Virus record (IMG/VR): IMGVR_UViG_2706794678_000004
Strand: one strand, 5' to 3'
DNA from: a virus
Lineage: Duplodnaviria; Heunggongvirae; Uroviricota; Caudoviricetes
Length of the DNA: 5,727 bases
Under the pieces are notes generated by a model that did not search any database, was not told the origin of the DNA, and saw only the letters and a list, made by a program, of their open reading frames with translations. Both the position numbers and the translations under genes were made by a program. Positions 2,565 through 5,445 of the stretch are shown in pieces; positions within the stretch are counted from its first letter, which is position 1, and each line of letters begins with the position of its first letter.

Positions 2565-2594
2565 TTGACCAGACACATTGTCCGGGGCTATATT
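2565..2594 (+). promoter_or_regulatory. Candidate late promoter (PR'-like): TTGACC-18 nt-TATATT
   Basis: -35 TTGACC at 2565-2570, 18-nt spacer, -10 TATATT at 2589-2594, starting 5 nt after the Q stop codon. Predicted transcript start near 2601-2603; the leader begins with hairpin CGCCAG-caaaat-CTGGCG (2602-2619). Confidence 0.45.
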
Positions 2595-2655
2595 CCTCAC
2601 GCGCCAGCAAAATCTGGCGTCGGGATTGGAACCCCGGATAGAGACCGCGACAGAC

Positions 2656-2680
2656 ACACGCCGCGAGCGTGTTTTTTATT
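2656..2680 (+). terminator. Intrinsic terminator (tR'-like) ending a ~75 nt leader RNA
   Basis: Stem ACACGC (2656-2661), loop cgcga, stem GCGTGT (2667-2672), followed by a run of six T then ATT (2672-2680). Confidence 0.5.
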
Positions 2681-2805
2681 GTCGTATGCACGCGCACATC
2701 TGAATTATGGTGGGGCGCATGGGGGAGCTGAAAAGCTCGCCGGTCGGTTTCCCGGTAGTTCCAACCCTGTGCGTCTCACCACCCGATGATTGGAACCTGA
2801 CGGTG

Positions 2806-2834
2806 TTGACAGTTTCAGGTTTGCAGTTTACATT
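2806..2834 (+). promoter_or_regulatory. Second candidate sigma70 promoter (consensus -35 TTGACA)
   Basis: TTGACA at 2806-2811, 17-nt spacer, TACATT at 2829-2834 (4/6 match to TATAAT). Function unclear; it may be the true late promoter or a promoter for the downstream ORF6N gene. Confidence 0.3.
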
Positions 2835-2869
2835 TCCCCGCGGTGCTCAAAACACCTCGAAAGCGGTAT

Positions 2870-2897
2870 CCACACCCGATAGCCATGTGGTTTTTTT
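2870..2897 (+). terminator. Candidate intrinsic terminator
   Basis: CCACA (2870-2874) ... TGTGG (2886-2890) stem with an 11-nt loop, followed by seven T (2891-2897). The loop is longer than ideal. Confidence 0.35.
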
Positions 2898-3040
2898 GTG
2901 TCCAGAATTCTTGGTTTATGACCGGGTGTGCGGCTAATACAATACCAGCAATGGAAATACGCCCGCCGACTTTCGACGGTTTTGAGCGCCCGGTCACCCT
3001 CTCAAAAGGGGTAAATCAAAATATTCGAAAGGACATGTCT

Positions 3041-3604
3041 ATGAATCGCACGTCTATTGAAAAACTCCCGTCACTTACGCATAACCATCTTCCTGTCATG
3101 ACAACAGAGCTGCTGGCTGATTTGTACGGAACAGAGCGCCAGCGTTTGACAAACAATTTCAATCGAAACAAAGAACGGTTTATAGAAGGTAAACATTTTT
3201 TCCTGATAGAAGGTGATGCGTTACGAGAGTTGAAGAACGAAAACTCTTTAAGAGTTTCTGTGAAAATTGCCCGTAACGTTCGCTCCCTCATCCTCTGGAC
3301 AGAACGTGGCGCAGCCCGTCACGCCAAAATGCTCGAAACCGATCAGGCGTGGGAAGTGTTCGAAAAACTGGAAGACTGTTATTTCAACCAGAAACAGCCA
3401 CCAGCGGCACAAAACACATCTATCGAAAATGATGGATGCGCATTACTGAGCCACTTCGATAAACACGGTCAGGTTGAGTTCACGGAAAAGGTACCCGCCG
3501 ATGCGATGGTATGTACTCTGGAACGGTTTAAATTTTATCTGGAGCAACACGGGTGGATCGTTGCCCGTAAAGAGCAACTGGTGGAGCGGTTGATGCGGTT
3601 TTAA
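3041..3604 (+). CDS. ORF6N-domain protein (phage antirepressor / Rha-like DNA-binding family), 187 aa
   Basis: The ATG at 3041 is preceded by AAGGA (3027-3031) at 9 nt; the 66 codons upstream in the same frame (from 2843) are Cys/Trp-rich and overlap the promoter/terminator region. 'LPVMTTELLADLYGTERQRLTNNFNRNKERFIEGKHFFLIEGDALRELK...LWTERGAARHAKMLETDQAWEVFEKLEDCYF' matches the ORF6N domain pattern as recalled (V-LDsdLAeLYG-etk-LN--v-RN--RF-e-F-L---E...fTE-Ga--ls--l-sd-A). Stop TAA at 3602-3604. Confidence 0.65.
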   Translation: MNRTSIEKLPSLTHNHLPVMTTELLADLYGTERQRLTNNFNRNKERFIEGKHFFLIEGDALRELKNENSLRVSVKIARNVRSLILWTERGAARHAKMLETDQAWEVFEKLEDCYFNQKQPPAAQNTSIENDGCALLSHFDKHGQVEFTEKVPADAMVCTLERFKFYLEQHGWIVARKEQLVERLMRF

Positions 3605-3793: not shown

Positions 3794-3870
3794 GGCCCTT
3801 TAGCTCAGTTGGTCAGAGCGAGCGACTCATAATCGCCAGGTCGCTGGTTCAAGTCCAGCAAGGGCCACCA
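3794..3870 (+). tRNA. ileZ: tRNA-Ile2 (anticodon CAT, lysidine type; ileX/ileZ-like), CCA encoded
   Basis: Cloverleaf read by hand: acceptor GGCCCTT/AAGGGCC, D-stem GCTC/GAGC, anticodon loop CTCATAA (CAT at 3828-3830), T-arm GCTGG-TTCAAGT-CCAGC, discriminator A, CCA 3868-3870. Closely resembles E. coli ileX as recalled; tRNA-Met cannot be excluded from the anticodon alone. Confidence 0.85.
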
Positions 3871-3871
3871 A

Positions 3872-3948
3872 CCACCACTAGCTCATCCGGATAGAGCATC
3901 AACCTTCTAAGTTGACGGTGCGAGGTTCGAGTCCTCGGTGGTGGGCCA
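3872..3948 (+). tRNA. argN: tRNA-Arg (anticodon TCT), CCA encoded
   Basis: Acceptor CCACCAC/GTGGTGG (unusual C1-G72), D-stem GCTC/GAGC, anticodon stem TCAAC/GTTGA with loop CTTCTAA (TCT at 3906-3908), T-arm CGAGG-TTCGAGT-CCTCG, discriminator G, CCA 3946-3948. Confidence 0.8.
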
Positions 3949-3950
3949 GC

Positions 3951-4026
<76 letters not shown>

Positions 4027-4029
4027 TAT

Positions 4030-4104
<75 letters not shown>

Positions 4105-4548: not shown

Positions 4549-4811
4549 NNNNNNNNNNNNNNNNNNNNNNNNNNNNNNNNNNNNNNNNNNNNNNNNNNNN
4601 NNNNNNNNNNNNNNNNNNNNNNNNNNNNNNNNNNNNNNNNNNNNNNNNNNNNNNNNNNNNNNNNNNNNNNNNNNNNNNNNNNNNNNNNNNNNNNNNNNNN
4701 NNNNNNNNNNNNNNNNNNNNNNNNNNNNNNNNNNNNNNNNNNNNNNNNNNNNNNNNNNNNNNNNNNNNNNNNNNNNNNNNNNNNNNNNNNNNNNNNNNNN
4801 NNNNNNNNNNN
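4549..4811. other. Run of 263 N (assembly/scaffold gap or masked sequence)
   Basis: Uninterrupted n characters. All track ORFs crossing it (4282-4845 +, 4290-4823 -, 4515-4853 +, and the X-containing part of 4486-4992 -) are artefacts inside the N run. Confidence 0.99.
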
Positions 4812-4992
4812 GTATCTGACCATGTTGTTTCAGGTCAGATATTAGCGACCTGAGTTTGTTTTCGTCGTTGGGTAATGCTTTATCGAACAGGCGTTTACCT
4901 GAACGATTAATGGCAACAGCGTGATGCGTATCTTTACCGACATCAACGCCGATAAAGACCTGGACGGATTCGTAATCGCTGGATTCGGTCAT
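4812..4992 (-). CDS. IS110-family (DEDD/Piv-type) transposase-recombinase, N-terminal 60 codons only (5' partial; rest lost in the N run)
   Basis: Minus-strand ATG (complement of 4990-4992) with GGGAG SD about 6 nt upstream. 'MTESSDYESVQVFIGVDVGKDTHHAVAINRSGKRLFDKALPNDENKLRSLISDLKQHG' has the IS110-family N-terminal signature (hydrophobic-G-[IV]-D-V-[GS]-K with the first catalytic Asp, then NDE..L..L as in IS900/IS110 recalled). Confidence 0.7.
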
Positions 4993-5205
4993 TCTGTCTC
5001 CCTTGTATATGGGTTAACCAGATAACCACGGGGAGCAGGTACCGGCATCCACGTTACAGACGGTCCCGGCAAAAGTGCCTGACCTGACCCCTATTAGCGG
5101 TTACCAGCGCCCCACCAGACCCGGTGACATCACCCCCCGGATCATGGACGACTGGGGGCAGTAATCATGCCGGGTCTGGCTGGCTAACACCCCATTATAA
5201 GGGGT
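4812..5205 (-). mobile_element. IS110-family insertion sequence, partial (recombinase 5' end plus upstream non-coding end); boundaries not determinable
   Basis: Recombinase N-terminus plus about 200 nt of GC-rich, stem-rich sequence upstream of it (4993 to about 5205). IS110 elements lack terminal inverted repeats, so the junction with phage DNA before the holin start (5230) cannot be placed by eye. Confidence 0.4.
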
Positions 5206-5229
5206 ACGAATAAAGTAACGGGGCGGGAT

Positions 5230-5445
5230 ATGTATCAGATGGAAAAAATATCAACAGGCATTGCCTACGGCACCTCCGCCGGCAGTGCCGGCTACTGGTT
5301 TTTGCAGTGGTTGGATCAGGTCAGTCCATCACAGTGGGCTGCGATTGGTGTGCTGGGAAGTCTGCTTCTGGGGCTTCTGACTTATCTGACAAATCTGTAT
5401 TTCAAAATAAGAGAAGACAAGCGTAAGGCTGCGAGAGGTGAATAA
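5230..5445 (+). CDS. S: Class II holin, S21-type pinholin with dual start (Met1/Met4)
   Basis: 71 aa '[71 protein letters not shown]' is near-identical to the phage 21 S21 pinholin as recalled. Two TMDs, with a Gly/Ala/Ser-rich TMD1. Stop TAA at 5443-5445 overlaps the next ATG (TAATG). Confidence 0.9.

What the first reader, a model, noticed from the sequence alone, without database searches (positions are those of the whole stretch)
4993..5210. Stem-rich GC-rich leader upstream of the IS110-family recombinase: candidate bridge-RNA-like ncRNA
The ~200 nt upstream of the minus-strand recombinase start is non-coding and dense in inverted repeats: CCAGACCCGG (5114-5123) / CCGGGTCTGG (5171-5180), nested CCCCC…GGGGG, ACCCC-attataa-GGGGT (5189-5205), GGCA-aaag-TGCC and GGTTAACC (5012-5019). 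IS110-family elements (IS621 is the described example) encode a structured bridge RNA in the non-coding end upstream of the recombinase, which specifies target and donor recognition. This region has the right position, orientation and character for such an RNA, and it sits exactly in the prophage cargo slot next to the lysis genes.
Basis: partly seen in the sequence, partly recalled or inferred. Interest (0 to 1): 0.7.

Follow-up and report, generated by a model that had tools for sequence, protein, structure and literature searches.

The report
Bridge RNA gene of insertion sequence ISEc20
The stem-rich stretch is the left non-coding end of the known mobile element ISEc20, and it almost certainly encodes the guide ("bridge") RNA that tells the element's recombinase where to insert; this class of RNA is already described, and a published table already flags it for this element.

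Summary
Window 4812-5219 (minus strand) is the first 408 bp of ISEc20, an IS110-group insertion sequence. It sits in a G/C run 10 nt upstream of a prophage holin gene. The rest of the element is hidden in the N gap.

The 227-nt leader (4993-5219) folds into a 5' hairpin followed by two stem-loops with large internal loops. Across 48 diverged relatives (66-99% recombinase identity), 96% of cells in 33 tested stem pairs form standard pairs. Eighteen of the 33 pairs show compensatory changes, and 0 of 500 shuffles reach this.

The loop segments behave as guides:
- First loop: CUGCCCCC and GGGGGG match the C-run target. Relatives with different loop sequences sit in correspondingly different flanks.
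- Second loop: UAAUAGGGGU and GUAACG(UG) match the element's own right and left ends.
- Permutation tests give 0/20,000 for the right-target and left-donor guides and 22/20,000 for the left-target guide.

If the circle junction carries one C, it forms a TTGACA-N17-TACTTT promoter, as reported for IS621.

Durrant et al. 2024 (Supplementary Table 5) already list the ISSfl4/ISEc20 cluster as having a bridge RNA detected in the left end. The finding is therefore correct but not new. Transcription, recombinase binding and the exact core were not shown here.

The parts
4812..4992 (-). First 60 codons of the ISEc20 DEDD recombinase (start ATG at 4990-4992); the rest is lost in the N gap
   Evidence: ORF. 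Pfam PF01548, E = 5.6e-12. 100% identical to 'IS110-like element ISEc20 family transposase' loci.
4993..5219 (-). Left non-coding end (LE) of ISEc20, 227 nt, from the element terminus GTTAC (5215-5219) to the recombinase ATG
   Evidence: Ten copies with different flanks, nine E. coli copies plus the window, all start at GTTACTTTATTCG. The empty prophage site L002 lacks this DNA.
5028..5206 (-). Predicted bridge RNA, about 179 nt. The 5' end is inferred from the -10 box; the 3' end is the end of the third stem-loop
   Evidence: A fold with the guides held single-stranded gives three stem-loops.
5188..5206 (-). 5' stem-loop UACCCC-UUAUAAU-GGGGUG
   Evidence: A hairpin forms at this position in 48 of 48 relatives despite different sequences.
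5114..5180 (-). Second stem-loop, the target-binding loop.
   Evidence: Helix 1: 15 pairs, 8 with changes on both sides, 97.2% of cells paired.
5154..5161 (-). Left target guide CUGCCCCC. It has the sense of the target top strand, so it would pair with the bottom strand
   Evidence: Matches left flanks ending in [C/T]GCCCC. Variant guides in L074 and L086 match their own left flanks 8/8 when read one nt 3' of the scoring register (sequences; the same register is allowed). Permutation: 230 observed vs 220 expected, 22/20,000.
5133..5138 (-). Right target guide GGGGGG, complementary to the top strand of the C run to the right of the crossover
   Evidence: The reverse complement equals the 6 nt that follow ..GGGGCA at the right junction at 225 of 234 positions in 39 relatives (0/20,000 permutations). 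All variant types match their own flank: CACCCC, CAAGGT, CTCTCA, CGCCCT.
5030..5113 (-). Third stem-loop, the donor-binding loop. Basal stem GGGGCGCUGGUA / UACCUGCUCCCC; apical hairpin at 5062-5084
   Evidence: Helices 3-5: 10 of 14 pairs show changes on both sides.
5087..5096 (-). Left donor guide UAAUAGGGGU, same sense as the element's right end ..TTAATAGGGGCA
   Evidence: The right end is read from intact copies. Variants GGGAC, GAGGC, GGAGC and GGGGCC in relatives are mirrored in their own right ends: 321 observed vs 313.5 expected, 0/20,000.
5050..5057 (-). Right donor guide GUAACGUG, the reverse complement of C-GTTAC at the left terminus. It complements CACGTTAC if the ends are joined through one C
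   Evidence: Inverted repeat I5 (5049-5057 with 5215-5223). GTAACGTGG is nearly invariant in all relatives.
5212..5217 (-). -10-like box TACTTT at the LE tip. The matching -35 (TTGACA) lies in the right end, which is not in the window
   Evidence: A reconstructed junction gives TTGAC[AG]-N17/18-TAC[CT][TA]T in 59 of 59 relatives. The junction itself is inferred, not observed.
5220..5227 (-). Left half of the target (minus strand CCCGCCCC), part of the G run upstream of the holin gene
   Evidence: The empty site in L002 reads cccGCCCCCCCgacag on this strand.
4549..4811 (.). Run of 263 N. It hides about 1,040 bp of ISEc20 (the rest of the recombinase gene and the right end) and about 220 bp of phage DNA
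   Evidence: The element measures about 1,449 bp in intact copies. In the empty site L002, 227 bp separate the positions matching window 4548 and 5220.

Best explanation
Window 4993-5219 (minus strand) is the left end of ISEc20 and encodes its bridge RNA, also called seekRNA.

**Proposed mechanism, by analogy with IS621.**
- When the element excises as a circle, its right end (..GCTTGACAACTTAATAGGGGCA) abuts its left end (GTTACTTTATT..). This creates a sigma-70 promoter, TTGACA-N17-TACTTT.
- The promoter drives an RNA of about 180 nt with a 5' hairpin and two stem-loops, each carrying an internal loop.
- The first loop holds CUGCCCCC and GGGGGG. [quoted passage not shown]
- The second loop holds UAAUAGGGGU and GUAACG(UG). 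[quoted passage not shown]
- The DEDD/serine recombinase bound to this RNA then exchanges strands next to a shared C. Here it placed the element in the G/C run 10 nt upstream of the holin start codon.

**Shown here.** Element identity and ends, conserved structure with covariation, and guide complementarity and co-variation with flanks and ends.

**Inferred.** Transcription and its start site, recombinase binding, the exact circle junction and core, and the cleavage position.
For: **Identity and position.**
- The DNA is 100% identical to annotated ISEc20. Pfam PF01548 and PF02371 match the full recombinase.
- Ten copies in different flanks, nine E. coli copies plus the window, share the same ends. 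The empty prophage site lacks the sequence.

**Structure.**
- RNAalifold on 48 sequences predicts two long stem-loops.
- For 33 hand-specified pairs, 96.0% of cells form standard pairs. Eighteen pairs and 161 cells carry changes on both sides. 0 of 500 shuffles reach this, and slid controls give 26-52% paired.
- Many G-U pairs make the structure specific to the recombinase-sense strand.
- The 5' hairpin is present in 48 of 48 sequences.
- With guides held unpaired, the fold has three stem-loops like the IS621 RNA.

**Guides.**
- Right target guide vs right flank: 225/234 positions, 0/20,000 permutations.
- Left target guide vs left flank: 22/20,000.
- Left donor guide vs right end: 0/20,000.
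- Independent variant guide types each match their own flanks.
- The right donor guide is complementary to the left terminus.

**Promoter.** -35/-10 spacing of 17-18 nt in 59 of 59 reconstructed junctions.

**Literature.** Architecture and promoter logic of IS621 (PMC11208160; PMC11208158). The ISSfl4/ISEc20 cluster is listed with a bridge RNA detected in the left end.
Against: - There is no expression or binding data for ISEc20.
- The single-sequence fold is only z = -2.67, and the opposite strand folds about as well.
- In the minimum-energy fold the two target guides pair with each other, because the target is a homopolymer.
- The circle junction was not observed. Counting C residues at E. 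coli sites gives 1, 2 or 3 C for the junction depending on the site, so the core and the promoter spacing rest on non-homopolymer relatives.
- The left-target-guide signal is weaker, and its register differs by one nt between C-run and non-C-run types.
- The element in this window cannot be shown to be complete, because of the N gap.
Confidence: 0.9

Rival explanations
1. The stems are only a structured 5' leader of the recombinase mRNA. They would control translation or stability and have no guide function.
For: In the unconstrained fold, a fourth hairpin pairs CUCCC with the Shine-Dalgarno GGGAG at 4998-5004. The same CUCCCC is the 3' arm of the third stem-loop, so a switch is conceivable. 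[quoted passage not shown]
Against: This does not explain why unpaired loop segments co-vary with DNA outside the RNA: the target flanks and the far right end of the element. A leader role could exist alongside the guide role, but it cannot replace it.
Confidence: 0.06
2. The repeated motifs (ATAGGGGC inside the left end and at the right end; GTAAC / GTTAC) are DNA binding sites for the recombinase, like sub-terminal repeats. The stems would be incidental.
For: The left-donor-guide segment and the right end are direct repeats that change together. Co-evolving protein-binding sites could produce the same pattern.
Against: - Stems with 18 compensatory pairs and many G-U pairs indicate selection on a single-stranded RNA of one strand.
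- The target-side segments track host flanks that differ between relatives. Fixed protein sites cannot do this.
- For IS621, RNA-DNA pairing has been shown structurally (PMC11208158).
Confidence: 0.03
3. It is ordinary GC-rich phage DNA, or chance inverted repeats.
For: The single-sequence z-score is modest and similar on both strands.
Against: The sequence is absent from the uninterrupted prophage site. It is present in 1,443 E. coli genomes, in the best-matching records always under ISEc20 annotation and at unrelated loci. Covariation in distant relatives excludes chance.
Confidence: 0.01

Closest known systems
IS621 bridge RNA (Durrant et al. 2024, PMC11208160; Hiraizumi et al. 2024, PMC11208158)
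   Same: - Encoded in the left end, upstream of and on the same strand as a DEDD plus serine recombinase.
- About 177-180 nt, with a 5' stem-loop, then a target-binding loop, then a donor-binding loop.
- In each loop the 5' side has the sense of the DNA top strand and the 3' side is complementary to it.
- The second loop is the more conserved.
- The -35 box lies in the right end and the -10 box in the left end.
   Different: - The recombinases share only 25-35% identity over parts of their length.
- The target is a [C/T]G-C-run homopolymer, not ATCAGGCCTAC in REP elements.
- There is no CT core. The two partners appear to share a single C (donor ..GCA-C-GTTAC).
- The two target guides are complementary to each other.
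- There is no experimental work on ISEc20.
seekRNA of IS110-type elements, e.g. ISEc21 (Siddiquee et al. 2024, PMC11187229)
   Same: A guide RNA from the non-coding region upstream of the transposase gene in IS110-type elements, with segments matching both strands of the target.
   Different: That paper does not mention ISEc20 or ISSfl4 in its main text. It reports that a shorter form of 70-100 nt was sufficient for ISEc11, an IS1111-type element, and that an even shorter region sufficed for ISEc21.
IS1111-group bridge RNAs / seekRNAs
   Same: The same recombinase family and the same guide principle.
   Different: In the IS1111 group the RNA lies in the long right end and is flanked by 7-17 bp sub-terminal inverted repeats. 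In ISEc20 only about 30 nt lie between the recombinase stop codon and the ..GGGGCA terminus, and the RNA is in the left end.
ISBma3 (Burkholderia) and actinobacterial relatives of ISEc20
   Same: About 66-82% recombinase identity. They share the left-end architecture, the same GTTAC and ..ATAGGGGCA termini and mostly the same C-run target.
   Different: Some relatives carry reprogrammed target loops: CTCTCA-type, CAAGGT, CGCCCT. Actinobacterial members have a longer 5' hairpin.

Membership tests
IS110-family bridge RNA (IS110 group) | Encoded in the long non-coding left end, upstream of and co-oriented with a DEDD (PF01548) plus PF02371 recombinase | tested here: met
   Left end of 227 nt at 4993-5219 (-). 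Pfam hits. ISEc20 annotation.
IS110-family bridge RNA (IS110 group) | [quoted passage not shown] | tested here: met
   96% of cells paired, 18 pairs with compensatory changes, 0 of 500 shuffles, 5' hairpin in 48 of 48.
IS110-family bridge RNA (IS110 group) | First internal loop: the 5' side matches the left target (pairs with the bottom strand), the 3' side complements the right target (top strand), and both co-vary with the flanks | tested here: met
   Right target guide 225/234, 0/20,000. Left target guide 22/20,000. Variant loops match their own flanks.
IS110-family bridge RNA (IS110 group) | Second internal loop matches the donor (right end and left end of the element) and is the more conserved loop | tested here: met
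   UAAUAGGGGU vs the right end TTAATAGGGGCA, and GUAACG vs CGTTAC. Co-variation 0/20,000. The loop columns are nearly invariant.
IS110-family bridge RNA (IS110 group) | [quoted passage not shown] | tested here: inconclusive
   TTGAC[AG]-N17/18-TAC[CT][TA]T in 59 of 59 reconstructed junctions, if one C joins the ends. The junction was not observed, and C-run sites give 1-3 C.
IS110-family bridge RNA (IS110 group) | The RNA is transcribed (about 177 nt) and bound by its recombinase | not testable with these tools
   No expression or binding data are available.
IS110-family bridge RNA (IS110 group) | Detected by a bridge-RNA covariance model | not testable with these tools
   Rfam 15 gives no hit in the window. 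It also gives none for the validated IS621 locus, so it holds no usable model. Published detection for the ISSfl4/ISEc20 cluster is in Durrant Supplementary Table 5.
IS621 subgroup | CT core dinucleotide at both ends | tested here: not met
   The junctions read ..GCCCC|GTTAC and ..GGGGCA|C... Only a C is shared. This is a subgroup trait, not one that defines the family.
IS1111 group | RNA in a long right end, with sub-terminal inverted repeats of 7-17 bp | tested here: not met
   Only about 30 nt lie between the recombinase stop codon and the ..GGGGCA terminus. The structured RNA lies in the left end.

The most novel reading that the evidence does not exclude
The ISEc20/ISBma3 clade may use a variant of the bridge mechanism in three respects.
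- Donor and target would share only one nucleotide (donor ..GCA-C-GTTAC, target ..NC|N..) instead of a CT dinucleotide.
- The natural target would be a hypermutable G-C(8-11) homopolymer, so insertion would depend on tract length.
- Loss of the element may leave a 4-C frameshift scar.

None of this appears in the main text of any paper in the searched library.
Probability: 0.3. Interest if true: 0.35.

Novelty: already known. Interest (0 to 1): 0.2.

Why it matters
Bridge RNAs are programmable two-guide RNAs that direct insertion, excision and inversion of DNA. Each well-defined natural system adds an orthologue and a set of design rules.

For this window the practical points are modest. The stem-rich DNA belongs to an insertion sequence, not to the phage. 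It should be annotated as the ISEc20 left end carrying a bridge RNA gene. The element sits between the prophage late-gene region and the holin-lysozyme cassette, which may affect lysis gene expression.

The guide assignments and target consensus given here could be used to predict ISEc20 insertion hot spots, namely [C/T]G followed by a long C run, in E. coli and Shigella genomes.

Tried and rejected
- **Rfam.** Searches of the window at the gathering threshold and at E <= 10 found nothing in the left end. The control on an IS621 locus also found nothing, so this says nothing either way.
- **Core position from E. coli empty sites.** Rejected as unreliable. Intact alleles carry C-rich runs of 7-11 nt: focB CCCCTCCCCCC, rtcB CCCCGCCC, terminase ACCACCCCC, phage site C7. 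The junction sums imply 1-3 C in the circle.
- **Two 4-C alleles.** These first suggested that the six C belong to the element. Both alleles are annotated as frameshifted, so they look like scars of element loss, not ancestral targets.
- **Right-hand C run as part of the element.** Considered and rejected. Its length and sequence vary between copies with identical guides (CCCTCC, CCTCTC, 5-7 C, more than 50 C). A long run would also break the conserved -35/-10 spacing.
- **CCCCC/GGGGG and the pairs RNAalifold draws between the two donor-guide segments.** Not counted as stems. The donor-guide pairs show almost no changes on both sides (one pair, 2 of 48 sequences). The few such changes in the C/G pairs are those expected if both segments track the same target.
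- **A covariance model of this clade to test against IS621.** Not built. A negative result would be uninformative at 25-35% protein identity.
- **Literature search** for ISEc20, ISSfl4 and ISBma3 found no paper describing this RNA in its main text.

Full report
**What is in the window.** The window is part of a lambdoid prophage. It carries a replicative helicase-like ORF, a RusA-like ORF and a Q-like ORF. It also has isrK, C4 and sRNA-Xcc1 RNA matches, an ORF6N-type gene, four tRNA genes, and then a holin and a lysozyme gene. Positions 4549-4811 are N.

Immediately to the right of the gap, 4812-5219 matches 'IS110-like element ISEc20 family transposase' loci at 99.8-100% identity. The match covers at least 80% of the query in 1,238 E. 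coli genomes, at many unrelated places. The DNA from 5220 onward matches holin/lysozyme regions of prophages that lack the element.

In strain VL40 the same prophage is uninterrupted. The tRNAs are followed by 227 bp of phage DNA and then the holin gene, and the site reads, on the minus strand, catatcccGCCCCCCCgacag. The finding's region is therefore not phage DNA. It is the left end of an insertion sequence that landed in a G/C run 10 nt upstream of the holin ATG.

**Check of the observation.** No ORF of 40 aa or more lies in 4993-5229.

As a single sequence, the minus-strand RNA folds to -98.3 kcal/mol with z = -2.67 against shuffles. The plus strand does about as well, z = -2.77. The fold alone would not be convincing.

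**Element and ends.** The 60 residues visible in the window match Pfam PF01548. The full 398-aa protein from an intact copy matches PF01548 and PF02371. Ten copies with different flanks, nine E. coli copies plus the window, share the left terminus GTTACTTTATTCG. That terminus is preceded by [C/T/G]GCCCC. The nine E. coli copies also share the right terminus ..GCTTGACAACTTAATAGGGGCA, followed by 5-7 C. The element is about 1,449 bp long, of which 408 bp are in the window.

**Conserved RNA structure.** A protein search and a genome scan gave 80 related loci with 66-99% recombinase identity. They come from Shigella, Burkholderia (ISBma3), other Proteobacteria and many Actinobacteria. Their left ends align along their whole length.

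For 48 sequences no more than 96% alike, RNAalifold predicts two long stem-loops. I then specified 33 stem pairs and left the putative guides unpaired.
- 96.0% of cells form standard pairs.
- 18 pairs and 161 cells carry changes on both sides.
- None of 500 shuffles reaches any of the five measures.
- Sliding the partners by 1-3 columns drops pairing to 26-52%.
- Many pairs are G-U, which would be C-A on the other strand. The structure therefore belongs to the recombinase-sense transcript.

A 5' hairpin forms in 48 of 48 sequences although its sequence differs widely. With the four guide segments held single-stranded, the ISEc20 RNA (window 5206 to 5028) folds into a 5' hairpin and two stem-loops with large internal loops. 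This is the architecture described for the 177-nt IS621 bridge RNA (PMC11208160).

**Guides in the first loop.** The first loop carries CUGCCCCC (5154-5161) on its 5' side and GGGGGG (5133-5138) on its 3' side. The left flanks of ISEc20 copies end in [C/T]GCCCC, and the DNA after the right terminus begins with a C run.

The decisive evidence comes from relatives whose loops differ.
- GGGGUG, ACCUUG, UGAGAG and AGGGCG are each the exact reverse complement of the six nt that follow ..GCA at their own right junction: CACCCC, CAAGGT, CTCTCA, CGCCCT.
- The 5'-side segments GUUCCUCU and AACCCUCU match their own left flanks 8 of 8, read one nt 3' of the register used in the table (sequences; one search allows both registers).
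- Over about 40 non-redundant loci, the right-guide match is 225 of 234 positions against a permuted mean of 195 (0 of 20,000 permutations).
- The left-guide match is 230 against 220 (22 of 20,000).

**Guides in the second loop.** The second loop carries UAAUAGGGGU (5087-5096), which has the sense of the right end TTAATAGGGGCA. It also carries GUAACGUG (5050-5057), which complements the left terminus C-GTTAC. Variants of the first segment in relatives (GGGAC, GAGGC, GGAGC, GGGGCC) are mirrored in their own right ends (321 against 313.5, 0 of 20,000). As in IS621, the donor loop is the more conserved of the two.

**Junction, core and promoter (inferred).** In relatives with non-homopolymer targets, the two junctions fit a donor junction ..ATAGGGGCA-C-GTTAC.., in which only one C is shared with the target. 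GUAACGUG would then complement eight nt, CACGTTAC, spanning that junction.

With this junction, 59 of 59 elements give TTGAC[AG], a spacer of 17 or 18 nt, and TAC[CT][TA]T. For ISEc20 this is TTGACA-N17-TACTTT. That is the reconstituted promoter described for IS621. In the integrated copy in this window the -35 position is occupied by phage DNA with a poor match, so strong expression would be expected only from the circle.

This part is not proven. At E. coli sites the number of C implied for the junction is 1, 2 or 3, depending on which intact allele is used. Two alleles with only four C are both annotated as frameshifted, so they look like scars of element loss. The core is in any case not the CT of IS621.

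**Comparison with what is known.** ISEc20's recombinase is only 25-35% identical to that of IS621 over the alignable parts, so this is a distant member of the IS110 group. Durrant et al. 2024 predicted bridge RNAs in 85.7% of IS110-group elements. Their Supplementary Table 5 lists ISSfl4, clustered with ISEc20, with 'Detected Bridge RNA End: LE'. Some NCBI records already name relatives 'IS110 family RNA-guided transposase'.

No paper in the searched library describes the ISEc20, ISSfl4 or ISBma3 RNA, its guides or its target in the main text. Rfam 15 has no model that finds even the IS621 RNA, so its silence on the window carries no weight.

**Verdict.** The region is the bridge RNA gene of ISEc20, at about 90% confidence. 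Transcription, protein binding and the exact crossover remain untested. This is a correct call on a known kind of element, already flagged computationally for this very insertion sequence, so novelty and interest are low. The residual points of interest are the homopolymer target, the single shared C in place of a CT core, and the 4-C scars.

Noticed in passing
window 2588-3003: Rfam matches above gathering score to c4-a1b1 (2588-2640), isrK (2601-2677), C4 antisense RNA (2703-2786) and sRNA-Xcc1 (2920-3003). They lie just upstream of an ORF6N-type gene (about 3041-3604). This looks like a P1/P7-type C4 antisense immunity module inside a lambdoid prophage.
   Followed up: no
window 3794-4104: Four tandem tRNA genes between the Q-like gene and the lysis genes, with anticodons CAT, TCT (Arg), TGT (Thr) and TCC (Gly). 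ARAGORN calls the CAT gene tRNA-Met, while RefSeq annotates the identical gene in strain VL40 as tRNA-Ile.
   Followed up: partly
window 4549-4811: The run of 263 N does not preserve length. By comparison with intact ISEc20 and the empty site, it replaces about 1,040 bp of the element plus about 220 bp of phage DNA. The completeness of this ISEc20 copy cannot be judged.
   Followed up: partly
window 5220-5229 and holin gene 5230-5445: ISEc20 sits 10 nt upstream of the holin ATG, between the Q/tRNA region and the holin-lysozyme cassette, and is transcribed in the opposite direction. It may interfere with late transcription into the lysis genes. A Shigella flexneri copy (L012) has the same right flank, CCCCCCGACAGACCTG, so this site has either been hit more than once or been inherited.
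   Followed up: no
L091 (focB, strain ETEC1730) and L095 (terminase, strain SMN152SH1): At two ISEc20 insertion sites, genomes without the element carry only G+CCCC and are annotated as frameshifted. Intact alleles carry 9-11 nt there (CCCCTCCCCCC, ACCACCCCC). These look like scars left by loss of the element through deletion between the flanking C runs.
   Followed up: partly
L013 (E. coli ECMA0423), right junction: This ISEc20 copy is followed by CGTTACCTCATCGG instead of a C run, giving ..GGGGCA-C-GTTACC. That is the sequence expected for an end-to-end junction joined through one C, followed by unrelated DNA.
   Followed up: no
L064, L048, L078, L081 right junctions; L072 first loop: Very long C tracts follow the right end in some actinobacterial relatives: at least 56 C in L064 and 13 C in L048. 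L072 has a G run expanded to about 13 inside the right-target-guide region. This points to homopolymer slippage at both the target and the guide.
   Followed up: no
L001 (E. coli FDAARGOS_944), both flanks of ISEc20: The 16-nt sequence GGGCAGCTCCTGCCCC occurs on both sides of this copy. That is far longer than the 1-2 nt expected from the recombination model.
   Followed up: no
window 4998-5041: CUCCCC, the 3' arm of the third stem-loop (5030-5035), can alternatively pair with the Shine-Dalgarno GGGAG (4998-5002) of the recombinase gene in the unconstrained fold. This could link RNA folding to recombinase translation.
   Followed up: no
window 5194-5200 and relatives: The loop of the 5' hairpin is UUAUAAU, which contains a perfect TATAAT. 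Proteobacterial relatives keep GATAAT, TACAAT or AATAAT in the same loop, whereas actinobacterial relatives have a longer hairpin without it. Its meaning is unknown.
   Followed up: no
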